Shown here one piece after another: positions 13,058-55,967 of a stretch of 64,000 nt of DNA. Source of the stretch: Azolla caroliniana (lineage: Eukaryota > Plantae > Polypodiophyta). The first letter of the stretch is position 1, and the number at the start of each line of letters is the position of its first letter. A program made the position numbers and the translations under genes. The stretch is taken from NCBI GenBank assembly GCA_043228905.1, contig JBHGNT010000009.1:18104001-18168000 (forward strand), read 5' to 3'. The notes beneath the pieces were generated by a model that saw nothing but the letters and a program-made list of their open reading frames with translations, did not search any database and was not told where the DNA came from.

Positions 13058-13068
13058 GGGGGAGATAG

Positions 13069-30045: not shown

Positions 30046-30832
30046 CGATGTGTATGTTAAAGAGGAAGTGAACCTTGTCAAGGACGAAATGACGTGGGTG
30101 GTCGACTCCGAAATGTCGTTTCACTTTACCCCCGACCGGAAATGCTTCTCATCATACACAACCGGAGACCACGATCTTGTGAAAATGGGAAATGAAGGAG
30201 CATGTCAAATCATCAACATAGGAGGCGTGTGTTTGATGGTATCACCCGGGTGCAAATTGGTATTGAAAGATGTGCAACACGTTCAAGAGGTCAAATTGAA
30301 TCTCATATCGGCCGGTCGGCTAGATGATGAAGGCTACATGAGTAGCTTATGGAACAACACTCTAAAATTTTGCAAGGGAATCCTGATTGTGGCCCGAGCT
30401 CGAAAGATAAACACATTGTATTTGATACATGCTCGATTATGCCGAGAGGAAGTAAATGTGGTAGTCGACACAACCGAGGAGTTATGGCACAAGAGGCTAT
30501 GCCATATGAGTGAGAAGGGGATGCAGAAGTTTGCCGAGGGTAACCTCATTTCGGAGGTGAAGAATGTGCAACTTGATAAGTGTACCGATTGCTTGGCCAG
30601 CAAACAGAACAAAGCCTCCTTTTGATCCATGCCCCCGAAGAGGAAGAAGATGTCATTGGAACTCGCGCATACGGATGTATGTTACGTAGATACAAAGTCT
30701 CATGTTGGTTCACAATATTTCGTGACCTTCATAGACGACTGTAGCCGAAAGTTGTGGGCTTCCATATTGAAGACCAAGGACCAGGTGTTGTCGGTCTTCA
30801 AGGAGTTCCAAGCGAGAGCCGTCAGAGAGACC

Positions 30833-31936
30833 CCTGTTAGCTATAGACCAATTTGCTCATATAATGGTTTATTATTTGAACAAACGTCTAAATGGCTTCA
30901 CCACCAACTCCTCCCTATACTTCTATGTCAAAAACAATATCTTAGGGACTCCCATTCCCTTGTCCAAACCTTAGAACAACTTATAACACCACCCAATAGC
31001 TTCATTTTTTCTTTTGATGTTGAATCACTCTACCCTAGCATCCCACCAAAACTAGGACTCTTAGCCCTAAAAAATATTATTTCCCCCCACTTTTCGAACC
31101 AAAAAACTAATTTGATTTATACCCTTAGCGCCCTCACTTTAGAATACCACTTCCTAAAATTCAACAACCAAATTTATCAACAGGTAAAAGGAACAGTCAT
31201 GGGCAGTAATTTTTCCGTTGTCTACGCATGTCTCTTCCTCTCATATCTAGAAAATTCCAATCCATCACCCCACCTTTTCTATTTCACTAGGTATATTGAT
31301 GATGCCTTTGGCGTTTGGACTGGTACTAAACCCCAACTTTTCGAATACCTAAACTTCTATAGTAACGCTACTCAAAACTCTATCAAACTAACCATACATA
31401 CTTCTTACACGAAACTACCATTTTTAGACTTGTGGATTAACTTAGATAATAATAGATTCACTTTTAATTGCTTTCAAAAAACACTTAATACTTATCAATA
31501 CATCCCTTATTCCTCCAATCACCCTCTCCATGTTAAAAATAGTTTCGTTTTGAATAAATTAAAAAGATATATGGTTAGAGAAAGCACATCCCTAGGTTAT
31601 TTGAATATGCAAAAGAAATTCTTTACGAGACTTAGGGCCCGAGGTTATCCCACGCATTTTATTTTAAAGAACTTTAGAAAACACCCTTACTCCCTTAGAC
31701 ACACTTTCCTCTTCAAAGAAAAAACTAAAAAAACCACCCCACCCACTATCTTTAAACTTAAATATACTCGCCATACCCCCACACTAATTATCAATGAAAG
31801 GCTCACTAGCCTACACTCTAGCCTACAATTAGATCCCCAACTACAACATATCCCTAAACCCATTATCTGTTGGACAAAATCCAAAAACCTCCACTCTTTT
31901 CTAGTCAAAACTAAAAACATCCTAGACCCCCCATAA
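30833..31936 (+). CDS. PLE reverse transcriptase (partial, uninterrupted frame; in frame with upstream Copia integrase)
   Basis: C-terminal ~367 codons of ORF 30629-31936. Confidence 0.85.
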   Translation, partial: PVSYRPICSYNGLLFEQTSKWLHHQLLPILLCQKQYLRDSHSLVQTLEQLITPPNSFIFSFDVESLYPSIPPKLGLLALKNIISPHFSNQKTNLIYTLSALTLEYHFLKFNNQIYQQVKGTVMGSNFSVVYACLFLSYLENSNPSPHLFYFTRYIDDAFGVWTGTKPQLFEYLNFYSNATQNSIKLTIHTSYTKLPFLDLWINLDNNRFTFNCFQKTLNTYQYIPYSSNHPLHVKNSFVLNKLKRYMVRESTSLGYLNMQKKFFTRLRARGYPTHFILKNFRKHPYSLRHTFLFKEKTKKTTPPTIFKLKYTRHTPTLIINERLTSLHSSLQLDPQLQHIPKPIICWTKSKNLHSFLVKTKNILDPP

Positions 31937-32149
31937 ACATATTTTCTCACCCTTCATCTATCCCCCTTCCTCATTCCTCTCTCCTTCCCCCTTACTACTA
32001 TTTACTAGTCACACACATCTCCTTTTTCCCCTTCCCTCCTATCTATAGTCCCCTATCATTCCCTCATATTTCACTAAAATCTCTCTCTCTCTCTCTCCCT
32101 CTCTCCCTCCCTTACTACTATTTTATATCTTCACTCATTCCTTCTCTCT

Positions 32150-32470
32150 CTCTCTCCCTTTTTTCTCCCTTCTCCCTTCTCCCTTCTCCCTTCCCCCTCC
32201 CCTATACCTCTCACAACCTTTTTATACACATTACACTAAAATCCATAGTTCTCTCTCTCTCTCCCCCTTTTTTCTCCCTTCTCCCTTCCCCCTCCCCTAT
32301 ACCTCTCACTACCTTTTTATACACATTTCACTAAAATCCATAGTTCTCTCTCTCTCTCTCCCCTCCCCTATACCTCTCACTACCTTTTTATACACATTTC
32401 ACTAAAATCCATAGTTCTCTCTCTCTCTCTCCCCTCCCCTATACCTCTCACTACCTTTTTATACACTCTC
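32150..32470. repeat. About four ~70-90-bp pyrimidine-rich tandem repeats in the PLE 3' region
   Basis: Repeated unit CTCCCCTATACCTCTCAC..CCTTTTTATACAC...AAAATCCATAGTT(CT)n. Confidence 0.85.
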
Positions 32471-32871
32471 TCTCTTCCCTCGTTTCCCTCAAACCTTCTC
32501 CCCACCACCTCTTACTAACTTCCTTCTTCATTTTCCTTCCTTTCCCTTCTTATTCCCTTCCTTAATTTTCACCTTCTCACCATCTTATGTTTACTTACTT
32601 ATAATTACATACCCTATCACTCATTCATTTCCCCTTATCACCATATCCCACTCACTCACCTGTCTTATCACCCTATCAATCTTCCTATCACCAACTCATT
32701 TCCCCCTTTATCACCACCTCCCCTATCATCAAGATCTTCCACCTTAAATCCTTACAACCTTCCATCTATTTACACTCTTATTACACCCCACTCACTATGA
32801 TTATACTTTCCCTCTTTCTCCTCCCTTCCCCATTCTCAACATCCTATATAAACCACCATTTGTATTTCCAT

Positions 32872-32926
32872 GACCTTTTGCACTGATGAGCTCCAAGCGA
32901 GCGAAACTAGTTTGCTGCATAAGGTC
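32872..32926 (+). ncRNA. Type I hammerhead ribozyme
   Basis: CTGATGA at 32883-89. Stem II GCTC/GAGC, then GAAA, minimal palindromic stem III (ACTAGT) and a GUU triplet. Stem I is GCA/TGC plus GACCTT/AAGGTC. Confidence 0.85.
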
Positions 32927-32955
32927 TTTCCTTTCATTTTAATGAAAATTTCTTG

Positions 32956-33005
<50 letters not shown>

Positions 33006-33837
33006 CTCTGTGCTTAGAATCTCTTCTTTTACTATTACATTATCTACTATATCACAAAGTCGCCCGCACTCCTTGCTACAACCAAATGGTTCACAATATT
33101 TCGTGACCTTCATAGACAACGTTAGCTGAAAGTTTTGGGCTTCCATATTGAAGACCAAGGACCAGGTGTTGTCAGTCTTCAAGGAGTTCCAAGCGAGAGC
33201 CCTTAGAGAGACCGGCCGGAAATTGAAAGCGGTTCGAGCGGATAATGGAGGTGGATATCAAGGGCGGTTCGAAGAGTACTGCCGGTCGAAGAGAATTCGG
33301 CTCGAATACTTCATGCCGAAGACTCTAGAGCTTAACAAGCGAGCCGAGAGAATGAACTGAACCACAACGTGGATTATAGAAAAAGGGAGGGACTTTGTGA
33401 TGGCTATTGGGGTTATGTTTTTTGCGAAAGAGAAGAGAAAAAAAAAAATTGAGGAAATTTTTTTGACTTAAAAAGCCCTAAGTGTGTAACTCGATTAAGT
33501 GCGCACTTTTCCCTTGCGTTCAAAGTGCACACTTAACCGAATGTCTATTGTAGTAGGTCCCATAAATGACTTGGGTCCTACAATAAGAAGCTAGTGCATT
33601 GATACTAACCACTCAATGTACCCACCGACTAAAACACTCTTAAATCCTTTTTTAGCCTTTCAACATGTCACATATTGGTAAACTCTTCATTACCTTTTGA
33701 TTGTTTGCAAGTGACATCCTATGGCATAAAATGTTCAAGAGGAACTGTCACAATCAATAACATATAATCGAAATCGTAGAGAGGGTCCAAATTTTACAAA
33801 GTTTACTATGATACTATTGAGTGTAGTTGGATATCAT

Positions 33838-34115
33838 AAAATTTGACAAAGGTTCGTTATCAACATCACTATTGTTATTATTTCATCTTGAGAACGAATT
33901 GCAAGAATCATATTGCCGATGTTGAACAATATTGAGGACTTTTTTATATAGAATGCGTAGACTTTATTTCTGCGAATTAAATTTGACAAAGGTTCATTAT
34001 CAACATCACTATTGTTATTATTTCATCTTGAGAACGAATTGCAAGAATCATATTGCTGATGTTGAACAATATTGAGGACTTTTTTATATAGAATGCGTAG
34101 ACTTTATTTCTGCGA
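33838..34115. repeat. ~140-bp direct tandem duplication
   Basis: AAATTTGACAAAGGTTC...TTTCTGCGA occurs twice. Confidence 0.9.
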
Positions 34116-34320
34116 GTATGTTATAACGATGCATAATCCCTTATGGTACATAACACACATTATGCAAAACCAGCTCATTAGTGCCATTTGTAAAAAAACG
34201 CACAGTGCCAATACCCTCAATGGAAGATGCATGATTGTTTCCAAGGTATACATGGGCCATGGTTGCATGCAGTAAACTAGAAAAACACTTCTTGATAGGA
34301 GTCACATGAGATCTTTGGAG
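34116..34320 (-). mobile_element. Copia protease-region relic
   Basis: VYLGNN..IEGIGTV..LHNVCYVP. Confidence 0.7.
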
Positions 34321-36489
34321 GTTTGAGCTAGAGAGAGAGAGAGAAGCCGCCAACTTAATTCTGAAGGGGAGCCCTTGTTTAAGATGTGTGTCTCTCAGTC
34401 CCTTAAGCCGTCAGAAAGGTATGGCCTTTCATTTCGCCTTACACCGACACAAAGGACTTCAATGCCAATACGTTGGAGTTTGAGAAGTGTCAGGTGGCTT
34501 TGGTGCATGAGAGATCTTGAGCATGACTTTGGAGAATAAGATATTGTTTGACCACCTCCTTCACTTCAGGAAAGAGTATCTAGATTACCTCAAAACCTTT
34601 TGGCCATGGTTATTCGGCACAATTCAATATTCTACATGTCGAGAAAAAGGGGGCTGATTTGTGTTTTTTCTGAAAGAGCTTATGATGGGACTAATTTGAT
34701 TCACAAGAATGAATCGATCCTTCTCAAAGATCAGTATGTTGGCCTAATGAATGGTAAAAAGCCTCCAAGTTTTGAAGAAAACAAGTTCATAGAATGAAGT
34801 ATTTGTTTACATAAGAACAATAGTAATGTTGCAACCACGAAGGTGTTGTCGCCTGCGGATGAAGATGCTGCACTTCATGCTCCGGTGAGCCTCCTTAAGA
34901 ATAATATCAAGGAAGAAGATGTGGATCATTACTTTTACATTTATTTTTCTGTTTTAGTTGACACTGTCAAAAGTCATTTCCATCCATTCTTAAAGGAATC
35001 TTTTGAACGTTTGTAGTTACAAACATGTTTGGAAACCAAAAATCTTATGGAATTTTTACCAGATTAAAAAAACAGAGTGCTGTAAAGCTGGAATGTGTTG
35101 TACCAAAAATTGCACTTCAATTCTTCGGAGGCTGAGAATTTGTCTTCTTCTCAAGCTGTATGCAAGAAGAACTTACTGGTTATCCCTCACTAAGCTGAAT
35201 GACATCTGAAACCAAAGATGAGTTGCTCATGTGCTGGAATCGAGCGATGGTGTTCAGTTTATCGACATTTTTCTAAAATAAAAGCTGTTAATGTATGAGA
35301 TGGCTTTACACTTTACAACGTGAAATATTTGACATGGTTTTTTACAAGCATAAACTGCAGGACTATTCCATATGGGTTGAATGGGTGGTAAGTGGATGTG
35401 GAATCTATTGTTTGTTGGTGTGGAGTGAGGCAGTGAGGAAGTAAACTGTTTGCATTTTGGGTGTCCTTGTGCAGATCATTGAATGTGAATGATGATCTCC
35501 ATGATCTGGTGTTGGGATGGCCTATGTGCACTCGCAATCTTTGTTAGCAGTTTTCCTTTTGACTTGCTTATTATTTACTCCCACAATGCCAATGGAGGCA
35601 CAAGCCGATGGAAGAAGTGAGTGATATGTGATTTCCTTTTGCATACCATGTGCCAATCAATGCCAATATTAAGTGTTGGTTCGTTTTCCTTTGTCTGATG
35701 GCGGTGTAGTGTATTCGGGAAGTGTGGGATACTTCTGTTGGATATTCGGGAAGCCTTGGCCTCTGCTCCTTGGAGGAAGATAGAAAGGCCAAGTTAACAA
35801 CAGGTTGAGAGAGAATTCATGGAGCTTCACTGTTGCCACAATCCAAGCTCGTGAAGAGAATCAACACCAAAACCTCTCATATATTGTGTGATTCTATTAC
35901 CCTAAAGTTTGGTTCCCTACTTTTGCCCACAAACCCAAAAGTGTAGAATATGCGTGGAAAGTTAGTAATATATGCACATTCAAATTCAACCTCGAACATA
36001 TATGGGCAAAATTAGGTCCGTTATGTAAAACCCTGCACAGGTAGGAACTGGTTTTGTGTATATTGACCATAGTGAAAGTTTTATCCACGCTGCCTATCAA
36101 AGTCATACATTATCATGTATGGGTCCAGCAATGGCACATCTCAATGGTCCTACATGTTCCTACATGTTTTATGTATAGCCTCGTTCTCTACCCTTAATTG
36201 CAATTTGGCATTGGAATCATGTGATTTGTACAGAGGGACATGCATATCTCCATGCCTCCATCATTACAGATATCCTTAATTGCAATTTGGCATCGGAATC
36301 ATGTGATTTATACAGAGGACCCGGGGCATTCATATCTCCATGCCTCCATCATTACAAATTGTATGTTGTCTGTCTTCTGTTGAATGCATGTCTCCATTCC
36401 TCCATCATTACACAACGCGTAATATAAATTGATTGAAATCATCCACGGTAAATAGAAATGGACAAAACATATTACGTTATTGTTATTAT

Positions 36490-37008
36490 TGTTCAATTTT
36501 CTTAGCCTCTCCTATCTGCGAGGTGCACCAGTCTTAATTTGTCCCTGCGATTATTTGGTAGTTAGAATTAGTTAAAATGAATAAAACAAGACTCATGCAA
36601 ACTTCACTAGATTGAACATATTTCGAACAATTAGAAAGCTGAGTTCTGAGCATACCTTGCACAAACCCACAGCCAAATCAGTAATTAAAGTATCTATTCC
36701 TGTGACAAGTCATCACAGTTCCCCAACCAGCCTGCTTCAACATCTTTACCCCCTCTATGCTCTCAAATACTGAACCTATTTTGGTTCACCTACCCATATA
36801 GCTTACATTTCAGTTATAAATAGGAATCGAAATCCCACTAAATTCTTGCGTATCTAGCAAAAATTGCCAAACATTACGCCAAAATCCACCAAATCCTTTG
36901 CAAATCTAACTATATATAATTTTCAAGAAAAATGTCATAAACTTGAGCCACCATTACCTTCAAAAGAAGTCCATCGCATGATGATTCCTTGATTGCCTTA
37001 AGTACTCT
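36490..37008 (-). pseudogene. ENO: Enolase 3' pseudo-exons, copy 1
   Basis: Exon 36958-37008 reads RVLKAIKESSCDGLLLK. The next exon is [17 protein letters not shown] and the last is GQIKTGAP. GT-AG flanks; frameshifts and stops present. Confidence 0.85.
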
Positions 37009-37016
37009 CTGCCCAC

Positions 37017-37051
<35 letters not shown>

Positions 37052-37196
37052 TATAAGTAAACATTAAAAGAAGTAATATAAGAAGGGGAAATGTGAAAAA
37101 TAGAACCTGTTACAACACGGATGGAAGGTTTATAAAGTGTCATTTAGACCATTTCCGTGGTTCTGATGGAAAATCAGGAGATAACACTCTCATATC

Positions 37197-39504: not shown

Positions 39505-41045
39505 TTTTTTTTTAAAGAAGATATCCTGTCATTAGTGTAACGATTTTTACAAGATTTAAATTCTATGTGATTGGGAGGGGAAACAACCATTTCGGAGGTT
39601 GAAAATGCCAATAAGGAGTACCATAGTTGGTTGTCATGAATGGAGTAGCTTTCCATATAGTGATGAAGTCATGTCGTTGAGCAATTTTAGCATCAGAATC
39701 TCCAACAATACCATCCCATTGTCCCTTCAAAGTATGAACTATGTCTAACCAAATATTTGAAACCAATTCAGCCGGTGGTGTTTTAAGCTGATGGAAAATA
39801 AGAGACCACCTAACCTTCCAAATGTGATATATAGTGGTACTACTCAAAATCTCCCATACTGGTTGGACTTCCTTTCGTGTTCCTATAAATTGTAAAGACA
39901 ACAATGGTACTATATGGACACTTCCAAATTTAGTGTAAAATCCATGGTCCATAGATTTAGTGTCATAATGAAATGCATCATGGACAAGAGATGTCCAAAC
40001 CACCATGCCCCAAGTGAAAACCAATGGGGGGAAATAATTAGCAAAAATTCTAAGGAGACATTGTTATATCAGTTGAGACTCAGTACATTCCCATTAGCAA
40101 TATTTTTGAGTTTCCATTTGTAAATGGCATTGTGCACAGGTAGAATCTACTCCCATCCTATGCAACCATGTGCCAACTGGCAAGGCTCGGTGTACAAGTA
40201 ACCACTGTACATGCAATATTTGATGCGGTTGTTTTCTTGCCCATAATACCACCCAGAAGTTTGCAGGGAATGGGGGAGTAATACCTTGTTGATTCCAATA
40301 TTGAAATGCAATTGGCATCACATCTCATGTACATGTCTTCCTAACTGTACAGAATATTGGAAGAAATTAAACTTGTTACCCATAAAAGGATCTATCCATT
40401 GACAATCAACTAGATCCCATTCTAATCTGAATACCGGTTTTTTAGCCAACACCCACAACTTCCAATGTGTCTTTATTTCCTCGATCATTGGATCAATATA
40501 CCATTTCCGGTCAGCATATCCGATGACTCTTATCTTGTGTTCCATAGCATAAGAGTAATCTATCCTCATTTCCCCTGACTGTGTCAATTGGTTTGCTTCA
40601 TCCACGTCAAAAGATTGGTAGGTCTTATCATCTGAAGATCCCTTAACAGCCAAGAGTACTTCCAATCTTGAATAAACCCCAACCCATCTGTGTTTAGAGT
40701 TATTGGGTGGAATGGGGAATCTACTCATAGCATCTTGAATTTGTTGATACATTATTTTTCCACCATGCATACTACCTAGGATTTCTTTTTGTTCTTCCCA
40801 TGAACGTGATAAAAACGTTGCCATGTCTGAACTGTTTTTGCAGGACCTTCTGTCATTTGACCCCACGCTAACCATTGTCTAGAACCCAACACTAAACCAT
40901 CCAATGTTGTAAACAACGTATTCCAAACTATCCTTTGTTTGAGATACTTAAGATAATGTTTGGGTTTAGGATTATTGCGAAGCAAACCAGGTAATACTTG
41001 CTTCCATGTTGAAAATAATGTTCTAATAAAAGGTCTTGGCATCTA
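39505..41045 (-). mobile_element. 3' fragment of a LINE related to 1975-6708
   Basis: T-run at 39505-39513. WLLVHRALPVGTW, CAQC, IYHIWK and PKWLFPLP match the first LINE's C-terminal region. Confidence 0.85.
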
Positions 41046-41400
41046 TTTCTTTTAACATCCGGCAGATCAGAAATGTGTCGTTTCTCTATACCATTTTTGA
41101 AAAACCGTAACTAGAATTGTAAATATTCAATGTGTAACTGGTATAGTTTAAATGCCTATATTTTTTAGCATTGAAATATGTTGCTTGGAAAACCACAAGC
41201 TGTTGCTTTTGTGCTCAAAGGATTGCAAGTTCCTGTCCTGAGAGAGAGAGTGAAGGAGTCAATTGTATGTCGATATTTTATTAATGGGTTAAAGGTAGGT
41301 TATTGACCACGTTTTTGGACTTTGCTAATTTCATCTGAATGTAATTTGCAGATAAAGTGTGCTCCTGTGAATGGTTGTCATATTTGTGGCAATATGTTCC
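41041..41400. repeat. Dispersed duplicate of 48576-~48990
   Basis: Shared ATCTATTTCTTTTAACATCC..., GCTTGGAAAACCACAAGCTG and TGTAATTTGCAGA. Confidence 0.8.
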
Positions 41401-41439
41401 TATATGAGTGTTGCCAAAGACAAAGACATATGAGTGTTG

Positions 41440-41760
41440 CTAGTTCCACTCTTTTGGTGGAGAATGGAGTGGCATAAAGCACACTTTACAACCGAAGCAA
41501 GACTGAGCCACAACTGAGACTTTGTTTTGTCGTTAAAATACCGGAACTCTACATTGACATTAGAAGCGCAGAGAGGGCATGGTGGAAATGTCCAAAGGCC
41601 TATCTTGAAGGTGTCCAAAACCTTGAAATGGGTACTGGTCATTGGTGTGGTGAGACTCTTTTTAAACCCGCCTTCAGCATTTAGGAGGATCACATCCAAC
41701 TTTGCCTTTATCGCCTCAATGATCGTCGTGCCATTTGTCTGCTGTTGCAGCTCTTGTAGA
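41440..41760 (-). pseudogene. Dof-like zinc-finger exon fragment (left hairpin arm)
   Basis: ELQQQTNGT..LLNAEGG..TPMTST..CPLCASNVNVEFRYFN matches 53593-54441. Confidence 0.85.
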
Positions 41761-41764
41761 ACCT

Positions 41765-42020
41765 TGGAGGCAATGTTGGATACAATCCTCCTAAATGCCG
41801 AAGGCGGGTTAAAAAAAGAGGCAGACCACACCAATGACGACTACCCAACTCAAGGCTCTAGACACCTTCTTCAAGATGGGCCTTCCGACATCACCGCCAT
41901 GCCCTCTCTAGGCATCTAATGTCAATGTAGAATTCCAATATTTTAACAAAAGAACAAAGTCTCAGTTCGTTCAGCCTCACTTTGGGTTGCACAGTGTGGC
42001 TGCAACGTTTCTGGTCGACT
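41765..42020 (+). pseudogene. Dof-like zinc-finger exon fragment (right hairpin arm)
   Basis: LDTILLNAEGGLKK..FFKMGLP..ASNVNVEF..VQP, frameshifted. Confidence 0.85.
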
Positions 42021-44091
42021 TCTGGTGATCATATACATATATTCTTCACGTCAGAGGGTGGGGATTCTTGTTCTTGCAATTTCTTGCTTCTTCTGCTCAT
42101 TCGTTTCCTTCTCTCATGTGCAAGGGTTTGAGACTCTACACCCATGCTAGACTCTGCTACAAAGATTGTTTGGTTTTGTAAAGCTGTTGATGCAAAAGCC
42201 GAGCAGATGTTGTTCTATTTCCCTGAGTTTCTATAGCTCCATGGGAAGGCAATATCTGACTGTGTTTTCTTTTCTAGTTATGCAAAACGTGTTTCTGAGT
42301 ACTTCGGATGTGTGAAAAGAAATAAAATCAATTGAATTGAATTTAGTGGATGCTTCTTCACAATTTATGCCAATATCAATTCAACTCTGAAGGCACACTT
42401 TCATTTCTTTGTCTTCTTCTTACCTAGAATGGCCAAATGCAGATCAGAGAACACATACAACAAGAAGAAGGCCACATTACTCTAATTATGATTACAGTGA
42501 TTAGGGTTATCAGTACTCCACAAAGAAAAATTCTTGTAACTCAGATTGCCAGTTATGAAGTTATTATTATTATTATCATTATAGGTTTCTTGGATCACAC
42601 ACAGTGGTGAAGTGACCATTGCGAGTCCTCACAGATATGATAGAGCTCTCCTCGGATCAAGAAAGAAGGATTGTACAACCAAAAGAAGATGGGCAACAAC
42701 CCATTCATGGATACGTAATGGTGGACATGGGAGTGAAATGTCACTATAAACCAATATATCCATAATCCAAGCAGTTCCACAAATGCATATGTAACAAGTG
42801 AGGTTGGAATCATTCACTATTTTAAAGACTAGATGTCAGATTTTCCTTCAGCCTTTAAGGTATAAGTCACACTATCATATTTTTGTGACAGCTTCAAAAC
42901 TATGTACCAGGTTTTAGTTGTAGAGCATATGTTATTGTTTAAAACCCTCTCAAGGGGTGGTAGAAATAAAGGACCTTTGATCTCTCCCACATGAACTTGA
43001 ATCCATAATAGCATTATACACCATATGAAACTTAAACAATTTTTGCAAGTCTGGGTTCCCAAAAGTTGTTAGTTTCCCTATTCGGTAACGAGAACGATGG
43101 ATGGCAAAATAGTACCTCAAAGCACGTCCCCTCCTTAAAAGTGTGATTAGCACCAACCTTATCAAGCAAAACATACTTTGGCATTTTGTCCCTAGGACAT
43201 CAAACCAAGGATATAGGCACGTTGTACCTAGTTCTAAACCATATGAATGAAGGTTGTGGAGGTGAATATTTTGTAGTTGGTTGACGAGTAGAAGAGAAGT
43301 AATAATCTGATGCACAGATTCATCAAACAGAAACGCATTATTGGTGGAGGCACAAGCTACAAAAAAAATCTCTCAAACACGATGAAAGTGCCTAGACATG
43401 CATCACAACACTTGAAAAGGGAGAGAGGTCATCAAATAAGCCAATAGTACACATGTGGGCATGTTGGAATGCATTAGGTTGCATATTCCACCACATAAAA
43501 TAGTTCTATCAACAATAATATTTGATCGATCAAAGTGTAGACTACGTAATAATAGTGTGAGTGCATTAGTTTGTATATTTGGCCACCAGATAATAGGATT
43601 GAGAATGAAGATATGACAAAAGGGCCATATAATTGTTGCATAAACCAACTGCCATCACTTCATGGATAGTGATAGGCCCAAGCAACCCATCCCACTCCAT
43701 GGCCATGATGACTAAATGCATAGTCTAAGTGACATATTGTATCTAGGATGAAAATTTTAATGGAAGATTGGATCAATGCAACTGAATTGAATAAATCAAT
43801 ATGCTAACATGACCCCATTCCTTCTTATTGATAGTCCAATGTGATCTACCATACGTGCATTCACATTTGAGAATGATTCAATGAAACGTGTATGGTAAAT
43901 CATCTCAAAGTTGGGAAAAAAATAAAGATTGGAATTTCAAAAAATTCACTATGGTCTATCTTATATATTGATTGAATCAAATGTCAACACAATTGAAAGT
44001 TCAAAACCTAGGAATTACTTAACTACTAAATATTAGAAAGCACGAACATAAAAATCATATAATTCAAAGACATAATTGTATTGATGATGAG

Positions 44092-44152
44092 CTCATCTTG
44101 CAATTATCGATGTTCTCATCTTGCAACTATCGATGTTCTCATCTTGCAACTA
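44092..44152. repeat. 23-bp tandem repeat, about 2.7 copies
   Basis: Unit CTCATCTTGCAAYTATCGATGTT. Confidence 0.85.
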
Positions 44153-44344
44153 GTGAAGGTATCAATTTCTTCACTTTAGAAATTTACAAAAAAATGAGTA
44201 TGAATTATAGAGATTGAATAAAAAGATGTCATTATACATTATAATCAAACGTTGAAAACCTCATAAAACGTATATTCGAGAATATGAAGGAAACATGAGA
44301 CTAACATAAAATTTTATTATGACATCACACTAAAGAGAGAGATT

Positions 44345-44422
44345 TAGGGAGAAAATTGGAATTCGAACCCAAGACATACATAGGTGATAGTAGCACAACA
44401 ACTTACCACTAGGGTGAGCTCA
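44345..44422 (-). mobile_element. Possible tRNA-derived SINE relic
   Basis: Minus-strand B box GGGTTCGAATTCC, with an A-box-like ...TAGTGGT upstream. Confidence 0.35.
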
Positions 44423-45737
44423 TTATCAATAATAGAAAAGGATAAATAAGAAAAAACAAGAAACACCTATTTTTCCTTTTTCTAACGTTTGTATGCTTGC
44501 ACGAACACATTTATTACGTTATATGGATCTAACCATCTCTCAGAACAAACTTGGGGAAGGTAACAATGTGTGAATTTACTAATATGTTAGGCCATGGCCT
44601 GATTGCCATCCATTGACGTTCCTTTATGTCCACGAATGTGAAACTCGCGACATGTCCATGATATCTAATGCATGTCCATGATATGTATCTCATGCATGGC
44701 ATGTAATCCCATCATCTCATTAATATTTACACAAACAAAAAATAATTCAAATGATTCCACTTCATTTATTTCATGTATTTATTCATTTAATGGCTTGAAC
44801 GTACAAAAAGTCTGCGAAAGAAGCAGCAATAGAATAAGAAGAAGAAGTAGCTCATTATCTTGTTCCTGCTTTTCTCCATCTCCATCCTCACTGATCCTCC
44901 AAATCATGATAATAAAGATGTTGTCACAAATGGATCAGCAAGTACATACCCTTAGTATCTTTAGCTATAAATACTTTAATGTTGGTGCTTGCGTACTTGA
45001 TTGACTAACATCTAGTATGCCACTTCTTTCAAAATACGAGAGAATGCTCCTAATTTAGGAGTTGAGAAGTATTCTGGGTTTTTGTTAACCACTAGGAAAT
45101 ATTTTTGGAAAAGTCATACGAATCTCGTCTTAGGTGGAGTTTTCATGCATTCACTCATCCTGCTCTCTTGCACTTTCTTGCACTCGCTTGAACACACCTC
45201 CACATAAGCTTTCTCTATTCCTCCTACTTCTATCTTTCTTGCTTATATTGGTGTGTGTGCTAATGCATTCATCATCGTGGACGAGTACTAGGAACAAGGA
45301 CAAAAGTGAAGGGATTTAATGTCAATCACATACATATTTAAATGTGTTGGAAGTAAGCTCAAGCTTGGAGTATGTTACATTGTCCATTTTAATATAGAGA
45401 ATGGATATATTGACATAAGACTAGACCAATCAAAGTTTGGATTAAGTAATCACACCCTGAGTGCATTAGTTTGTATATTTTCTTGCATACGATTCGAGGG
45501 AGATAGGATCGAGGGGTGTCGGGACATATAGTAATTACTTCATGGATTGACACTCCCAAACACCCAACATGATGGGCATGATGACTGCATGCATAATCAA
45601 GTTGCATATCTCGTCTAGGATGCAGGGTTTGACGGAAGATTAGATTTAAGATGACTCGACTCTATAGATAAAATGATAACATGAACCTAGTCCTCCTTAA
45701 AGCTCTCCTGACCAAACGAAATCTCAAAACACATCAG

Positions 45738-45783
<46 letters not shown>

Positions 45784-45842
45784 GCAAATGTCCTTGAAAC
45801 TCATGCTTTTGTTCATGTCTCCTCATGCATATTGATATAAAT

Positions 45843-46148
45843 TTATAATTGCTTTTGTTCATATGTTATGTTATGTATGTATTAACTAGCGATGATGATG
45901 TACCATCCACCCCCATTGATAGATGGGTCATCATGGTCATGCATGAGCTGGTTTATATTGATATAAATTTATAATATAAACCAGCTCATGGCATGCATGC
46001 ATGACCATGATGACCATGACATGCATGGGGGGTGGATGGTAAGTACATATATCATCCATCCCATCATCTCTACTTAATACATACATGCATACATACATAC
46101 ATACAATTAATACATACGTACATATTTACAAAATCAAAAGCAAATTAT
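45843..46148. repeat. Imperfect ~300-bp inverted repeat (fold-back)
   Basis: Perfect 18-bp inner stem at 45942-45959 / 45973-45990, with outer complementary blocks. Confidence 0.8.
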
Positions 46149-46389
46149 GGTCTCGAATGAATGAATGATTCCTCTCTCTCTCTCTCTCTCTCTCTCATCA
46201 CATTCAATGAAATGCTTTGCCGCCTTTCATTCATCTCTGATTCCTCTTCTATCCCATGAAAAGCCTGCTGCAGCATTCTGTCTGCCATGAAGAAGATGTC
46301 ATCATCATCATCATCATCATCATCTCACTCTCTCTGTCTCTGTCTCTGTGTTTCAGTGGAGGTGAGGTAGCCATTGATTGGTAGCATTC

Positions 46390-46448
<59 letters not shown>

Positions 46449-49299
46449 TTACTATTGATCGATCAAGCCAAGTGCCTTTCTTCTTCAAATGGATACAGTT
46501 GTTGATCTCCTAAACCTACCTGCAGTATGATCCTCCTCACGTCAAGAACAAATCCACGCATTAAACTGTACATGACACACACACACACGCACACACACAC
46601 ACACACAGACAACTTGGAGGTCTACTAACTCCTCCATGATTTACCAAGCTTGTCCTCGCGACTTGACTTACGCAGAAAACTCTTTCAGTCTTATTTGCAT
46701 CACAAGTGTCTCCATAAGACTATTGGCTTCGGTTTCAGAGAAGAAATTAGTTTTGAGGGTACAATTGGAGGACCAAGAACTTGATTTTGCCTTTGCCTGA
46801 ACCTGCAGAACCAGCTTTCCATCACTCGTGAACGTGAAATCTCCTGCAGCACTTTCTACTCACTTCTTTTTCCCAATGCTCAACACTATTTCGCACGAAT
46901 TCAACGGAGTGATTAAACGAACCTTCCCATTTTCTGCAACATAAAGATGGATGTAAATATCTTCTTCTTCTACTTCTGAATGAGATTATCTCAAGCGCAT
47001 CAAGTCTAACAAGCTCTACTTCCCCATCTCCTGTGACAAGGTATTGTCCTTTGTACCATCTTTTGGATAAACCCCAACGGAAGCCTGAAGTCTTGATCTT
47101 TCTCGCTTTTCTCTCATTGAACCTTCGATGTTTTTTTTGTTCCTCTTATTTTTCAGGTCCATTTGATTTATTCATCTTCTTATAACATCGCTTTTCTACG
47201 CGTGGATAAAATACTGTAAGTAAAAAACAATTCCTTTTCCCTCCGTTCATTATCTGTACAGGAAATCTCCGTTCGTGTATTACTACAAGTCAAAATTTGA
47301 GTTTGGGAAGTTTCTTTGATTTATCTCTTTACATTCGGGTGATATTGTTTGTGGAGTTTTGGACAAAACGTCGTTTTGATTCATCCAATCAGAGGCATTT
47401 CAAGGATTTTCGTTTTTGGCGTTCATTGATTATTCGAGAAAAATTTCTTTTGAAAAATCTGTTTGATTTTTTTCTCATGTTATTTTGTGGAGAGTATGTT
47501 CTCATTGAAGATAAAGACACTCGTTTGAGTTTCTTTTCATATGATTTTTCTTTTGGTAATGTTCATGCTTTACTCCCAATCAAAATTTGGTCCAACCATT
47601 CCTTTGCATCGTATTGTGGAACTCCGTTTTTCTTTCATATGAAAAACTAGGGAAATTCGTGTGTTCATGCATGCCATTCTGTTTATGGATGTTCATCCGT
47701 CCAAGACATCCAAAGGGGGACATATCAAGGATTCTCGTTTTGCTATTCATTTAGTGTGAGTAAAGTCCGTTTGATTTGGTCCTCTTTATCTATTTAGACT
47801 AGACATCAATCAACATCCCTTTGGTTCATCCAAATTGCACTAGTTTAATGATAAGCATATTGTGGAACTTCATTCTGCCCCCAGAAGATGATCTCCTTGG
47901 AGTACCATCTTATCACCTCTAATATTTAGTGTCTTTAGCTGTTAGGAGGATTTTCCTAATCTTGAACTAAATGTCATTAACCAATAATTAAAAAGGAACA
48001 AATGATTATATTCAATTTCATAGAACGTTCAAACGATAGAGTAAAGTGGCATGTCTCTTGCATCCTGACATGGAGAACCTCAATGCTAAATGATTAAGCA
48101 AGGTTTCTAGGGCTAGGCACCTCTACACCGACATTGTAAGGCTATTTTATGTGTTGCTTTTCTGAATAAAACATGGATTTTTTAGTTGCGTTGAAGGTCA
48201 ACAATGACGTGTTGTATGCCTTTGATGGTTTGTATAAACCAAGAACTTTGATATCTAGGAGACAACAAGATATTATGCTCTTTCTGTCTAACATTTCTGG
48301 AGTTTGGGTATTTAATATTTGCTGTTACTAGAAATCCATAGGTTTTCAGATTATTGTACCATATCATTTATGCCTCCAGTCTTCCTAGCTTGTGCATATA
48401 CTTGACCCTCAGCCTCTATGCTAAATAATCAATGAAAGAGTGGAAAATTTGTTCCTTGTACGTGATGTTTATGCAACAGGAATAACTCATTTGTTGGTTA
48501 AAGAATCATTTGTTAGTAAGGATCATTGTATGTATGCCTTCATTCTTCCTAGTTGTATCAATAAAAGGTCATGTCATCTATTTCTTTTAACATCCAGCAG
48601 ATCAGAAATGTGGCCTTTTTGTGCAACATTTTTGAAAAACGAGTGACTACTAATGTCAACATTAAATGCGTAACTGGTATTTTGCTCTAATGCCTGTATT
48701 TTTTGTTGCATTCAAATCTTTTGAGCTTGGAAAACCACAAGCTGTAGCTTTTGTGCTGAAGGATAGCATGTTCGTGTCATAATAAAGATAGAGAGAGAGA
48801 GGGAGAGGGAGAGCGATGGAGTAAATACCATGTCTATATTTCATTAATGACTTAAAGGGAGGTTGTTGACCACATGTTTGTTACTTGCTCGGTTCATCTA
48901 TTTGTAATTTGCAGACAAAGTGTGCCCCTGTGAAAATGTTTTTTGGATATGGGGCTGAATGGTTGTCCCACTTGTGGTAATATGTTCCTGTATGGGACTG
49001 GGACGGGGATTGAATGGTTGTTCTTTGGTTGAGTATGCTATCATTTGAGCCGGCTCACGCACATTTTTAGGGATAGATGTCATGGTTTAGCAATTATATG
49101 TAATGACCAAGAATGGAATCATTCAAGGGCATGATAGATGTCGTGTCTAGCCCATGTTGAAGTTCAAAATTAAGAGACTCAACATGTTGGTGGCAGGCCG
49201 TCAATTCTTTGTTGAAGATAATTGAGAACCAAGGAAACACTCCTTTTCTGACTTATTTAAGAATGGAAGTCTCGTGTTTTCTATCCACAGAAATATAAG

Positions 49300-50910
49300 T
49301 ATTGGAAATACATATATTACCTTATAGAGTAATGGTCCATAGTACGTAATATACTTGAATGCATTGGCAAACATTCTTTTTCATTCGAATGCAACCGAAT
49401 GTGTATGATACAACTTTCCCACAAAGAGATGGGCTTGAAAGGTTCTTTTGGCAAACCATGGACTAGATTATTACATTGTAATGTTTTTAGAGCATTGAAA
49501 TGCATATGGCCTAGACGAAAGTGCAAAAGAGAAGAAAGAGAATGAAGATTGGTTAAAGATATGGATGATTGTATTGGGGTAGAATGATGTGCATCTAAAT
49601 GAGAGATATAGAAATGCATTTTATGGGATATAATCCTCATTTGCAACAAGTTCTAATAAGTTCTGCATTTGTGGCTTTGTGTTTAGTAATAGCATGGTTA
49701 GAATTAAATTCAATGATAGTACCATTTGTGGTTGCTTGACTAACCAATAACACGTGTTTGGTGATTCCTGGGACATAGAGAACTTCATTGATTGTGAAAT
49801 GTCTTGCTAATACCTTGTTGAGTCCCATTGTTACCAAATCTTACTATGATAGGGGGTTGAGCTTCAGTATAATTATATAACCAATCTTTTCCATGAGTTA
49901 AGTGGTTAGTAGCGCCAATGTCAAGATACCATATGTCATTTTTTCATCGCTTGGATTTGGAGTCGTGATGGGAAGTGATTTGACAGTGAATGCTTGAAGA
50001 ACATCGTCATACTTGTCACCAGTTTGATATCCCTCTCTTACGTCTTTATCATCATTCATTTCTTCTTCAACAAGATGGGCTTGTACATGCCTCCAAGGTT
50101 GACATGCCTCCAAGGTTGATAATTCTTGAAACTTGACTTTGAGCGCCAATCTTTTGTTGTATGATTAGTAAGTTTGCATATTTTATAATAGGTATTGTTG
50201 AATCACATTCCTTCTAGTTTAGTGTTTTGATCTTTCTTTATCCATGGCTTTGAGCTTTCTCTTCTTTGGTTGAACCTTTTATTTTTGTATGCTATCATTG
50301 CCATGCTTGGAGTTGAATTTGAAGTCCTTTGTGAACGCATTATTTCTTCCTATCTAATATTTGCAAGAAGATCAATTAAAGTTGAATAGTTTATAAAGTT
50401 TTGGGTGGTTCGGACGGTGGGCCGTGAGGGAGAAAGAGCACCAAGAAGGAGAATCTTTTGTAATTTACCATGGATTTCTAATCCCGAAGTTAACACATCA
50501 TCGAATTTCTTTTGCCATATTTAAAGAAATTCACCAACCGGTTGTTCGTCAATCATTTTGTAATTGACGAGTGCTTGAAGTGTATGAGCTCGTTGGGCAT
50601 CGTTTTTTTTGTTCGTCGATAGTTTGCAAATGCTTTCACATTTCTTGGGCCATCTCCATTTTTCGCACGTTTTGCTGATGCCGTCACTTACGTGCATTAG
50701 AATTTCCATTCTTGCGCATAGGTCTTTTTCCTCATATTCTTTAAGTTCTTCTCCTTTTTCAGGTTTTGTTGATGATCTTGAAATTATGTCCCATAGTTTA
50801 TTATATTTAAAGAGTAATTCTAATCTTCCCTACCATATTCGATAATTTGTGTCTGACAGTTTGTCGATTGTAAATTTTCACATGTTGGGTTGCGACGATG
50901 ACATGGATTG
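49300..50910 (-). mobile_element. Highly degraded Copia relic (gag to GAG-pre-integrase)
   Basis: LYVPGIT..LLVSQ, LHFRLGH..VHGLP and NYRIW..LWDII motifs. Confidence 0.7.
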
Positions 50911-51823
50911 TGCATTTATTGCAGAGGATTGTCTGGATTAGTGCTCGGCAAACACAAACTTGACTTTCGTTATTTGTCAACTTTAGACACTACAAATATG
51001 ATTGTTTTGTATGGTAATAAGAGTTAAATTATGATAAGGGCATGTGTTTTATGATTTTAGAAAGGCACATGCTATAGTTTACAGGTTGTTAACATTAACC
51101 TAGGGCTGGTTCTAATCTCAGACTAGTTTTGCCACCTGCCCTGTGTTAATGTTAATAAGGCGAAGATAAAAAAGAACACAGTGTGCCAGGCGATGGACAT
51201 GAGCAAGTAAATTCTACACATCAGAGGGTGGAGATAGTTGGACTTGCAATTTGCTTCCTCAGTGATCACACATTCAGTGGAAGCGATCACATGCTGCTCG
51301 GTTTTGAGACAATTAGACCAGAAAAACAAGACAGAATAATTTTTTACCCGACGAAAACTAGAAAGAGAATATTCTACGGTCCAAAGAAAGAGAAAAAATG
51401 AAAAATAAGAAAACGAGTGCATCGCAGCCGTTGAGAAAAAACATTTCTAGAAAAATAAAAGGACGGCATCCAGCCCATCGAAGCCGTGCGCCGTCGGATG
51501 GACGTCAGGATCCAACGACCCACGATTGCTTACTTACAACGCAAACTGTCTTCTGCCCATTTCCTGACAGAGAAACATCAGTTGCAAGAATTTCGAACAC
51601 ACAGAGAGAGAGAGAGAGCGCGAGAAGGAGCTTTGAACACCATCGCCATCCTGCTCAACCCATTGAACAGCAGTTGCCTTGTAGGGTAAGGAGGAACCAA
51701 CATTCTTATATGGAAATGATAATTACCTGCAGAATCCTACCTTATCAATCGTATACTAGTTAGTAGGTGGGACATCACCTTCACCTGCCTCGGCTTCAAT
51801 TGACGATCAATCCAACCCAGACT

Positions 51824-54441
51824 ATGGTTGCTGCTAGCGTGGGCAGAGATACCCAAATCAGTCGTAATGATGAATTCGCAGGATTATTATTAGATGAGAA
51901 GGAGGTGGAAGACTTCCAACAGTTGGTGCTTCAATTGCTCCACCAAACAGAAGAAGATCAATCAATCAGAGCTGACTCCTTGGAGCTTCCCATCACTTCA
52001 ACCTCCGACGACAATGTGGACTTATATGCAGATGAGCTGGAGCAATTACTGCTCCTGCATCAGGAAAATCAAGAGATACCTGAACCTCTGACATCCGCAG
52101 GTCAATTAGGAGCTTCCAATATCAGTCGATGTGTAGGAGTAAAAAAGTAAACAAGTTTCTGAATCTTTTTGGGATGATAAAGCTGTAGAGGGTTCCGCAG
52201 AAGCTCCCGTCACATCTTTCTGCGACAATTATGCAGAGGAGCTGGTCATCATGCTTGATGAGGATCACGAAATACTTAAAGATATTCCTGAAGATTCTTC
52301 AGCTCCCAGCTCAGCAGGTGAATTGGGAACTTCTGCTTTCCCACTCTGTTAATATATTGCATGGACTCAATACCTAAATCATTTTCTAACTTATATCATG
52401 ACGCTGCAGCTGGTTATACAGCGCCTCCCAGGACACCATTTTCTGACAATTATGCAGAGGAGCGGGATCTTGATGAAGATCATGAAAGAATGGAATGGAG
52501 TTATGAATATCCTTCAGCTTGGACATCAGCAGGTGAATTACTAGCTTCTGCGCATAAGTACAACCTCAATCAATATGCACAAATGACTAAATAACCTCCT
52601 CCTAACTTATATGTAGATCATGAAGCTGCAGCAGGTTCTACAGAGCCTCCCATCATATCATTTTCAGAAATGTATGCAGAGGATCTGGAGCACCAATTAT
52701 TGCTCCTACTTGATACAGACCATGAAATAATCAAAGGGAGTTCTGAATATCCTCCGTCAACTACATTAGCAGGTGAATTAGTAGCTTTTGCTCATAATGG
52801 CAATGTCAATGTAGCGCATCAATGAATTGATTACATAACCATCTAACTTATATTAGATCGTAAAGCTGCAGCTGGTTCTACAGAGGCTCCCATGATACCA
52901 TTTGCTGACAATTTTGTAGAAGAGCTAGGGCATGATGAAGATCACGAAAGAATTGAATGGAATTATGAATATCCTCTAGCTCCGACATCAGCAGGTGAAT
53001 TGGTAGCTTCTGCGCATAAGCACAATACGAATCAATATGTGCAAATGACTAAATAACCTTCTAACTTATATTTAGATCATGAAGCTGCAGCAGGTTCTAT
53101 AGATCCTCCCATCACATCATTTTCAGATATGTATGCAGAGGATCTGGAGCAGCAATTACTGCTCCTTCTTGATGAAGATCATGAAATAATTGAAGGGAGC
53201 CCTGAATATCCCCCATCAACTACATCAGCAGGTGAATTAGTAGCTTCTGCTCATAACTAAAATGTCATTATAGTGGCATCCATAAATTGACTACATAACC
53301 GTCTAACTTATATTAGATCGTAAAGCTGCAGCAGGTTCTACAGATCCTCCCATCACATCATTTTCAGATATGTATGCAGAGGATATGGAGCAGCAATTAC
53401 TGCTCCTTCTTGATGAAGATCATGAAATAATCGAAGGGAGCCCTGAATATCCTCCATCAACTACATCAGCAGGTGAATTAGTAGCTTCTGCTCATAACTA
53501 AAATGTCATTATAGTGGCATCGATAAATTGACCACATAACCTTCTAACTTATATTAGATCGTAAAGCTGCAGCTGGTTCTACAGAGGCTCCAATGAATAA
53601 TGCCCAGGATGATTTTATACTTGCAGAGCTGCAGCAGCAGACAAATGGCACGGCCATCATTCAGGAGATGAAGGAAGAGTTGGATGCCATCCTGCTAAAT
53701 GCTGAAGGCGGCTTGAAAAAGCGGCTCATGACGCCAATGACCAGTACCCAATTCAAGGTTCTGGAGGCCTTCTTCAAGATGGGCCTGCCCACGTTACCAC
53801 TATGCCCTCATTGCGCGTCGAATGTCCAAGTAGAATTTCGATATTTTAACAACCGAACGAAGACTCGGTTGGTTCAGCCTCGCTTCAGCTGCAAGGTGTG
53901 CTTCACACCACCCCATTCTCCAGAGAAAGACTGGAACCAGCAAAAGCAGGAGGAGCATGTGAATAATAGGAAGAAGCTGGAGTTTACGCTTCACCAAGAG
54001 GAATTGGAAATGCTGGCTGGTGCCTGGGGAGGGCTTCATGCGCTGGTGCAACGTTTCTGGTCGATGCCACATGCCATCGAAGTTCTGGAGGCCAACAAAT
54101 TTATCCCGTGTAGCAGCCGCCACTGCAAGTCTGAGAGTCCAACCAAGTCATCGCCAAAGAGGAAGAGGAGATCGTGGGAGTCGAAGCAGGTCAATGATGG
54201 TGGTACTGCTCCTGAGAATGTGATGGATCGTCAATTGCCTCTTATGAGAGATCATCATGATGAGCATATGTTGTGGATGGAATCTTTTAATTCCATCATC
54301 GCAGCAGAGAGGCTAGGTAGTTCTGCTGCCTATACCTCCAGCACTACTAATCCTAACAATAATGATAGTGATTGGTATTATGATTACTATATGAGTTGGA
54401 ACAATCTAAACAATAACAACATTGCTGCTTTCACTTGGTAA
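51824..54441 (+). CDS. Divergent Dof-like zinc-finger protein with acidic exon repeats, ~647 aa; exons 51824-52100, 52189-52317, 52410-52532, 52632-52772, 52872-52994, 53091-53231, 53332-53472, 53573-54441
   Basis: All introns are GT-AG and phase 1, and most carry a CTAAC branch point. Internal exons are 129/123/141/123/141/141 nt and stop-free. The last exon has CPHC..FRYFNN..QPRFSCKVC. Confidence 0.78.
51960..53600 (+). repeat. ~220-240-bp exon+intron tandem array, about 7 units
   Basis: Recurrent AAGCTGCAG..GGTTCTACAGA and CATCAGCAGGTGAATT. Confidence 0.92.
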
Positions 54442-55700: not shown

Positions 55701-55967
55701 GTTATGAGGTAAATAAGCCTAAAAATGAAAAAAAAAAAACACAAGAATGTTTGAATAACATTCGCATTCGTTTTCCAACGTAGGAAAACGAATGTTATGT
55801 TAGACGAACACGTATTTTACGTAGTATGAGTCGGAGTATTTATAGATTTATATTTAGTTTTGACAAGAAGGGAATGATTGGATTAGACTTAGTCCAACCT
55901 ATGAAGGGTCTTGGTAGTTGGAATAGTTGGGGATCAGTAATTGATTATCTAACGTTATTCTTATTAT

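What the first reader, a model, noticed from the sequence alone, without database searches (positions are those of the whole stretch)
41490..41989. Inverted duplication of the Dof-like exon: candidate hairpin-RNA silencer of the neighbouring gene
Seen: a ~220-bp minus-strand copy (41490-41707) and a ~220-bp plus-strand copy (41768-41989) of the zinc-finger coding region lie head to head with a ~60-nt loop. They include long complementary blocks (TCTACATTGACATTAGA; AACCCGCCTTC.GCATTTAGGAGGAT). They sit about 10 kb upstream of the intact gene and match its region ~53680-53900. Known: inverted gene duplications yield siRNAs and are a recognised origin of young plant MIRNA genes. Inference: a linked transcription factor / hairpin suppressor pair. 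The arms have diverged, so a decayed rearrangement is also possible.
Basis: partly seen in the sequence, partly recalled or inferred. Interest (0 to 1): 0.75.

Follow-up and report, generated by a model that had tools for sequence, protein, structure and literature searches.

The report
Fern hairpin RNA from duplicated gene
This plant (likely a fern) carries four copies of a fold-back piece of a zinc-finger gene among copies of that gene; a sister copy appears to be spliced into RNA, so the hairpin likely makes small RNAs that would dampen the gene family, while the copy in this window has lost its leader exon and is likely decaying.

Summary
The hairpin is real (MFE -299 kcal/mol, z -23). It is not a fresh copy of the neighbouring gene. 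It is an old paralog of a fern Dof-like zinc-finger family in which an inverted copy of the last exon replaced the upstream coding exons. The arms are 81-85% alike and 76-83% like this genome's genes. Three more copies lie in a nine-gene cluster on another contig, and a diverged orthologue with a shortened stem occurs in a separate assembly. One low-depth contig from a run guessed to be RNA splices a leader exon (GT..AG, 885 nt) onto the sister-copy hairpin on the + strand, which makes the 5' arm antisense. That arm has 32 nt of perfect complementarity to the window's gene. The window's own copy has two changes in that tract and lacks the leader exon. Against function: no compensatory pairs, the stem is no better conserved than its flanks, and no small-RNA data could be tested. 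Best reading: an endogenous inverted-repeat siRNA locus acting on the family in trans. This is a known kind (Allen model, SULF, Drosophila hp-pncr009), not found reported for ferns in my searches.

The parts
39563..40878 (-). LINE-like retrotransposon fragment standing where the hairpin locus's upstream leader would be (inferred)
   Evidence: ORFs 39563-40063 and 40318-40878 resemble by eye the end of the L1-like ORF at 2177-3979 (not family-tested). No homology to the C18 leader exon lies upstream of the hairpin in the window.
41025..41351 (+). 3' remnant of the leader intron, ending in the splice acceptor kept from the parent gene
   Evidence: 76% to 48560-48934. The acceptor ends at 41351, the same site as the one used in the spliced C18-type contig.
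41352..41436 (+). Leader exon piece in front of the stem; its junction with the inverted arm is shared by C9, C18 and L087
   Evidence: Alignment A2; 58 of 65 identical between L087 and C18.
41437..41707 (+). 5' arm: inverted copy of the Dof-like last exon; antisense to the family's mRNA if read on +
   Evidence: 93.8% to the C18 copies.
41614..41645 (+). Tract that is a 32-nt perfect complement of the window's gene in the C18 copies but carries two substitutions here
   Evidence: permutation p 0.021, 1 of 5 tests, uncorrected.
41708..41767 (+). Loop: unpaired continuation of the antisense copy; holds the best family-wide 21-mers (score 0.5)
41765..42020 (+). 3' arm: sense copy of the last exon, with an internal deletion after 41998; it runs further in C18 (to gene 54117) and L087 (to about 54430)
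47112..47338 (+). The neighbouring gene's homologue of the leader exon that is spliced to the C18 hairpin (donor GT at 47339, acceptor ends at 48914)
   Evidence: 70% to L026:1982-2674; splice sites; use of these sites by the gene is inferred.
51824..54441 (+). Predicted Dof-like gene: 8 coding exons, 647 aa without internal stop; seven exons each encode one acidic repeat, the last holds the zinc finger and a basic NLS-like stretch
   Evidence: Splice-site model (not confirmed by RNA); Pfam; dN/dS 0.28-0.48 among paralogs.
53625..53943 (+). Part of the gene covered by the antisense arm (putative target region)
53734..53765 (+). 32-nt site perfectly complementary to the C18 hairpin's 5' arm (L026:3363-3394)

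Best explanation
This is one of four genomic copies of an old inverted duplication inside a paralog of a Dof-like zinc-finger family (likely fern-specific); the locus is likely transcribed from the family's own duplicated leader as a spliced hairpin RNA that would be diced into small RNAs silencing family members in trans, and the window's copy is likely a promoter-less, decaying duplicate. Shown: the fold, the paralog anatomy (leader intron and exon, inverted copy, sense last exon), the copy number, the orthologue, the target complementarity. Weakly shown: + strand spliced transcription of the C18-type copy. Inferred: shared promoter and co-expression with the targets, Dicer processing into a siRNA population, cleavage or methylation of targets.
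For: Fold z -23. Hairpins lie only inside family clusters: 28 matches, all on C9 or C18; 7 copies with an open last exon and 3 broken ones. In run X1 one contig joins L026:2215 to 3101 across an 885-nt GT..AG intron with strong sites (32 nt on the short side, depth 2.8); three contigs cover 3098-3272, 3364-3630 (across the loop) and 3613-3809. All six matches of 99% or more to the leader run on into the intron, so no processed copy is seen in the assembly. The leader is homologous to the genes' upstream DNA. Orthologue L087 (84-89% per segment) has the same left junction and keeps a stem of about 160 bp after an inner deletion (z -14.5). 21-mers scoring 1 or better: C18 + strand vs window gene 28 of 760; L087 + strand vs L085 24 of 311, minus strand 0 of 311 (overlapping windows). 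The L087 5' arm is 127 of 141 identical to gene L085 but 116 of 141 to its own orthologous arm. Two Dicer-dimer domains are in the genome.
Against: No column of 123 changes from one Watson-Crick pair to another between C18 and L087. The stem is not better conserved than unpaired parts: arms 84% and 86% vs leader 89% and tail 88% (L087/C18); arms 93.8 and 92.5% vs loop 96.7, upstream 95.8, downstream 92.8 and 89.7% (C9/C18). Wobble pairs do not favour the + strand: 7 vs 19 (C9, p 0.029 towards minus), 12 vs 13 (C18), 7 vs 13 (L087). For C9 and C18 both strands give similar numbers of good 21-mers (C18 minus strand: 20 of 760), and the best family-wide ones sit in the loop. The RNA status of X1 is the tool's guess; the joint rests on one contig, and another contig lies inside the intron. 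Arm-tracks-target tests are marginal and uncorrected: p 0.043 (1 of 15 tests), p 0.021 (1 of 5), Fisher 0.084; the AU test does not reject a plain clade of 5' arms (p 0.124). 9 of 35 stem substitutions are CpG transitions, as in methylated decaying DNA.
Confidence: 0.55

Rival explanations
1. A neutral fold-back pseudogene: a rearrangement in an unstable gene cluster that is passively transcribed from an inherited promoter and carried along by segmental duplications, with no regulatory effect.
For: No covariation and no excess conservation; arm-arm divergence (16-19%) is about the same as divergence between orthologous arms (14-18%); CpG decay; the cluster is rearrangement-prone, with 41.5-kb repeats at 99.5-99.9% and a large inversion; a fourth C18 unit has lost the stem.
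Against: The locus and a long stem are retained in a lineage about 15% diverged; the splice sites are intact and apparently used; the antisense arm is anomalously close to a gene in L087. A transcribed stem of more than 200 bp is by established plant biology a Dicer substrate (PMC10827316, passages).
Confidence: 0.3
2. The locus acts mainly through 24-nt siRNAs and DNA methylation of the homologous exon (and of itself), not through mRNA cleavage.
For: CpG transitions are enriched in the stem (9 of 35 vs 5 of 59 downstream; 5 of 10 listed X1 differences, while CpG sites are 32 of 712 positions). endoIRs yield 24-nt siRNAs (PMC10827316, passages).
Against: The genes' covered region keeps its CpGs (o/e 0.62-0.79 for open copies over the last exon) and its synonymous differences are largely transversions. 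Many ferns have a weak 24-nt class (PMC5569507, passages).
Confidence: 0.08
3. The locus has already matured into a young MIRNA gene that gives one dominant 21-nt miRNA from the 5' arm.
For: Imperfect stem, spliced precursor, shortening of the stem in L087.
Against: No 21-nt island of conservation across copies: the 32-nt tract of C18 is deleted in L087 and mutated in C9. No Rfam match in the window.
Confidence: 0.07

Closest known systems
Inverted-duplication origin of plant MIRNA genes / endoIR-siRNA loci (Allen et al. 2004, seen only as cited in bioRxiv 10.1101/2024.07.25.605110 and PMC10827316, passages)
   Same: Hairpin made of coding sequence of the target family, asymmetric arms, parent leader/promoter region retained, imperfect stem.
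   Different: No small RNA shown here. The locus is old enough to have an orthologue about 15% diverged, yet shows no conserved miRNA island. In a fern-type genome.
Antirrhinum SULF and Mimulus YUP (review PMC12371187, passages)
   Same: [quoted passage not shown]
   Different: No phenotype or complementary expression is known here; the target is a multi-copy transcription-factor-like family; YUP silences an unrelated gene.
Drosophila hp-pncr009 / 825-Oak cluster and Nmy/Tmy-Dox hpRNAs (PMC10317233, passages)
   Same: Several hairpin loci interspersed with about nine paralogous target genes in a fast-changing cluster; spliced hairpin precursors.
   Different: Animal Dcr-2 pathway, testis expression and, for Dox, meiotic drive are shown there; nothing ties this family to reproduction or conflict.
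Inverted repeats in NBS-LRR clusters (PMC5026261, passages)
   Same: Foldbacks born inside tandem gene clusters with gene conversion; small RNAs keeping pace with their targets.
   Different: The target here is a Dof-like zinc finger, and the repeat lies within one paralog rather than at the junction of two whole genes.
Dof transcription factors (Pfam PF02701; CDF1, PDB 8xuf)
   Same: CPxC...FxYFNN...QPRxxC motif; weak hits (Pfam E 9e-6; 8xuf E 0.031).
   Different: Below the Pfam cut-off, longer spacing between the cysteine pairs, no C-terminal half of the domain; named relatives are hypothetical proteins of Ceratopteris and Adiantum.

Membership tests
endoIR-siRNA / gene-derived hairpin RNA locus | Long fold-back far beyond chance | tested here: met
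   z -23.35, 0 of 100 shuffles; L087 z -14.5.
endoIR-siRNA / gene-derived hairpin RNA locus | Arms homologous to a protein-coding gene family | tested here: met
   76-83% to family genes.
endoIR-siRNA / gene-derived hairpin RNA locus | Both arms transcribed in one Pol II-type transcript | tested here: inconclusive
   C18-type copy: one GT..AG joint and one contig across the loop, in a run only guessed to be RNA. Not shown for the window's copy.
endoIR-siRNA / gene-derived hairpin RNA locus | Dicer-dependent 21-24-nt RNAs from the stem | not testable with these tools
   Only contigs of two runs were served.
endoIR-siRNA / gene-derived hairpin RNA locus | Enough complementarity to targets in 21-nt windows | tested here: met
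   Score 2 or better vs the window gene: C9+ 30 of 571, C18+ 37 of 760 (my own ungapped Allen-type score).
endoIR-siRNA / gene-derived hairpin RNA locus | Target repression (cleavage or methylation) | not testable with these tools
   No degradome, methylome or mutant data.
MIRNA gene | One dominant miRNA/miRNA* duplex | not testable with these tools
   Needs small-RNA reads.
MIRNA gene | Duplex region conserved above the rest of the precursor, with covariation | tested here: not met
   no Rfam match.
Dof family (neighbouring gene) | Pfam PF02701 above the gathering score | tested here: not met
   26.1 vs 26.6 bits, model positions 6-34 of 59 only.
Dof family (neighbouring gene) | CX2CX21CX2C spacing and the C-terminal tryptophan-containing half (definition recalled, not from a call) | tested here: not met
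   The sequence shows CX2CX25CX2C and an unrelated sequence after the last cysteine.
Dof family (neighbouring gene) | Binding to AAAG DNA (recalled) | not testable with these tools
   Bench assay needed.

The most novel reading that the evidence does not exclude
A lineage-specific, co-amplifying suppressor system in ferns: a young Dof-like activator family expands in an ampliconic cluster together with a hairpin gene driven by the family's own leader, and the antisense arm is periodically re-matched to the current targets by gene conversion (91% to type-C genes in one lineage, a 32-35-nt perfect tract to type-A genes in the other), while synonymous sites in the covered exon part diverge 2-4 times more than the rest. 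This would be a plant counterpart of the Drosophila hpRNA-versus-amplified-gene arms races.
Probability: 0.15. Interest if true: 0.8.

Novelty: new member of a known kind. Interest (0 to 1): 0.5.

Why it matters
Gene-derived hairpins are the textbook intermediate between duplicated genes and new plant miRNAs, but clear cases are described as rare (bioRxiv 10.1101/2024.07.25.605110, passages), and none turned up for ferns in my eight searches. This locus offers a natural series: copies with the leader, a copy without it, a copy that lost the stem, and an orthologue with a shortened stem. That makes the siRNA-to-miRNA transition, and target tracking by gene conversion, directly testable. It also points to an unnamed fern Dof-like family.

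Tried and rejected
No RNA holder listed for 40900-43400; this is no evidence either way. In run X1, L026:4009-10000 and the gene's last exon (53682-54188 bin) had no cover, and the contigs over the hairpin were C18-type (22 differences to the window vs 8 to C18 over 267 nt); X2 laid nothing. Lack of cover is not counted as evidence. The joint 51538-51664 (AC..AT ends) was not taken as an intron. Rfam: 0 matches. One 12-nt motif of the 32-nt tract was not found in the supplements of PMC5569507 or PMC8386757. This is uninformative: the second paper's novel-miRNA label 'miRNF' was also absent from the readable text, and the species match is only my guess; tables held as pictures could not be seen. 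Homolog search among longer proteins: none of 1191 candidates. ESM Atlas: best 0.84, no usable lead. Protein-coding reading of the ORFs across the hairpin (P0006, P0010 clusters) was rejected: they are half antisense, the right arm has stops and frameshifts and L087 deletes the middle. My first guess of a moss was dropped. Automatic exon models for 8 other family copies failed, so whole-gene intactness is modelled only for the window gene. AU tests on four groupings were all inconclusive. The excess of synonymous change vanishes in the three pairs with type D and within type C, so I do not count it as evidence of escape. No hairpin in L080-L086, or of family type in L071-L079. Left out of trees: identical or deleted gene copies and the distal-only fourth unit. 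Look-ups of earlier scan notes by sequence and nearby place returned nothing.

Full report
Observation. BLAST of the window against itself and against C18 shows an antisense copy of gene 53943-53625 at 41437-41761, followed at once by a sense copy starting at gene position about 53669. The 60-nt loop is therefore the unpaired 5' part of the antisense copy, not a spacer. 188 of 229 aligned arm columns are Watson-Crick.

The neighbouring gene. The last exon has a Dof-like motif but scores below the Pfam cut-off and has CX2CX25CX2C spacing. A search of 1.84 billion representatives gave 17 hits. Of the 17 looked up, the 4 clusters with an organism name are hypothetical proteins of the ferns Ceratopteris and Adiantum; the rest are unnamed assemblies. 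With an earlier AI note that calls this genome a fern, I read the organism as a fern; this is inferred. The 220-240-bp repeats upstream each carry a donor, a branch-like motif and an acceptor; joining them gives 8 coding exons and 647 aa without a stop (model only). dN/dS among paralogs is 0.28-0.48 over the last exon, so the family is under purifying selection.

Genomic context. The genome holds 7 copies with an open last exon, 3 broken ones and one distant remnant; all but the window's gene lie on C18, nine of them within about 200 kb. Three more hairpins lie there, identical to each other over the aligned 680 nt and 91-92% like the window's, in 41.5-kb repeats that are 99.5-99.9% alike and may be very recent or partly an assembly effect. 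A fourth, inverted unit keeps only the distal right arm. Window 41175-43778 and 43715-55699 match two parts of the C18 unit, mostly at 88-95%, so the window's hairpin-plus-gene module is a copy of that unit without the type-B gene in between.

Origin. Over the shared columns the arms are 81-85% alike and 76-83% like this genome's genes. The four arms form one clade (bootstrap 100; 52 once further paralogs and an outgroup are added), and at 14 columns all arms agree against every gene of this genome. So the hairpin came from a separate, older paralog, not from the neighbour. Its anatomy is that of a paralog: leader intron and exon homologous to the genes' upstream DNA, then the inverted copy, then the sense last exon, which runs to gene position 54117 in C18 and about 54430 in L087.

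Transcription. Two runs with the same species label were served as contigs only, their RNA status guessed. In X1 one contig joins L026:2215 to 3101, removing 885 nt that begin GT and end TTTGCAG and are 66% A+T; further contigs cover 3364-3630 across the loop and 3613-3809. All six near-identical genomic copies of the leader continue into the intron. This is weak (one contig, depth 2.8, 32 nt on the short side, and one contig lies inside the intron), but it gives the + strand, on which the 5' arm is antisense to the family. The window's gene has homologous donor and acceptor sites at 47339 and 48914, so a shared leader and promoter are inferred. The window's hairpin keeps the acceptor (41351), but no copy of the leader exon was found upstream of it in the window or among the genome-wide matches; LINE-like sequence stands there instead.

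Orthologue. A scan of metagenome contigs confirmed 8 loci of 114 candidate stretches; 7 are genes of types here called A/B, C and D, and L087 is a hairpin. It has the same left junction, 84-89% identity per segment, and an inner deletion of about 290 nt that leaves a stem of about 160 bp (z -14.5). Types C and D and the L087 form were not among this genome's matches, so they probably come from a related lineage.

Targeting potential. With an ungapped Allen-type score, 12 of 571 + strand 21-mers of the window's hairpin score 1 or better against the neighbour, mostly in the loop; for C18 it is 28 of 760, including a 32-nt perfect tract against 53734-53765 that has two changes in the window's copy. 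The minus strands score similarly (0 of 571 and 20 of 760 against the neighbour, up to 21 of 571 against type B), so there is no strand signal in this genome. In L087 there is one: 24 of 311 on + against 0 of 311 on minus for gene L085. Its 5' arm is 91% like L085 in the zinc-finger segment, while every other arm is 73-84% like any gene there. That suggests gene-to-arm conversion, but the tests are marginal and uncorrected (p 0.043, 1 of 15; p 0.021, 1 of 5; Fisher 0.084; AU 0.124).

Results against function. No compensatory change in 123 columns between C18 and L087 (3 columns changed on both sides, none from one Watson-Crick pair to another). The stem is no more conserved than unpaired sequence in either comparison. 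Wobble pairs lean to the minus strand or to neither. CpG transitions make up 9 of 35 stem substitutions against 5 of 59 downstream. A long siRNA-producing stem need not show covariation (inference), but these results leave neutral decay at about 0.3.

Side result. Four-fold sites in the covered part of the exon differ at 11 of 37 (A/B), 12 of 34 (A/C) and 10 of 36 (B/C), against 3 of 44, 3 of 42 and 4 of 42 in the rest (Fisher 0.008, 0.003, 0.043). The contrast is not significant for B vs L085 at four-fold sites (0.16) and absent in the three pairs with D and within C. The pairs are not independent and segment trees are mosaic, so conversion among paralogs explains it as well as escape from silencing does.

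Comparison with what is known. It works like an endogenous inverted-repeat siRNA locus of the Allen type, with close parallels in SULF, NBS-LRR cluster foldbacks and the Drosophila hp-pncr009/825-Oak cluster. Membership is not proven because small RNAs could not be tested; the MIRNA conservation test was not met. Papers seen: passages of 10.1101/2024.07.25.605110, PMC12371187, PMC10317233, PMC5026261, PMC10827316, PMC8386757 (supplement 2 read, four supplements searched) and PMC5569507 (first part of supplement 1 read, four supplements searched). Allen 2004 and Bradley 2017 were seen only as cited there. Eight full-text searches (listings only, except the papers named) showed no report of this locus or family; subscription journals are largely not covered.

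Verdict. A real feature; a new member of a known kind; interest 0.5.

Noticed in passing
window 51824-53572: Seven small exons, each encoding one acidic 41-47-aa repeat (the first within a longer exon) with leucine-rich cores, separated by same-phase introns: an exon-per-repeat array that looks like a multiplied activation domain; repeat number appears to vary between paralogs.
   Followed up: partly
window 53625-53943 and paralogs: Synonymous divergence among gene types A, B and C is 2-4 times higher in the hairpin-covered codons than in the rest of the exon, but not in pairs with type D.
   Followed up: partly
G000:C18:17351827-17566308: Ampliconic cluster: three 41.5-kb tandem units at 99.5-99.9%, a large inverted duplication at 94-98% and an assembly gap at 17508748-17508847.
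   Followed up: partly
L066, L067, L069, L070; P0011, P0014-P0017: A wider, unnamed fern family of Dof-like zinc fingers (invariant PxCPxC...VxFRYFNN...QPRxxC) in long single ORFs on C5, C6 and C13; no inverted repeats beside these copies.
   Followed up: partly
G000:C9:2819478-2820257 (L071) and C306:22474-23253: Orphan copy of the family's leader exon region (about 75%) with no Dof-like coding sequence found in the 20 kb fetched.
   Followed up: partly
window 7963-13493 and 15645-25443: Two recent LTR retrotransposons of Gypsy type, with LTR pairs 98.8% and 99.8% alike.
   Followed up: no
window 26980-37148 vs 55935-63599: A patchy duplication of Copia-like fragments at 86-96% identity on both sides of the hairpin-gene module.
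   Followed up: no
window 42015-42650: Directly after the right arm lies an inverted copy of DNA found upstream of type-B genes on C18 (76-79%).
   Followed up: no
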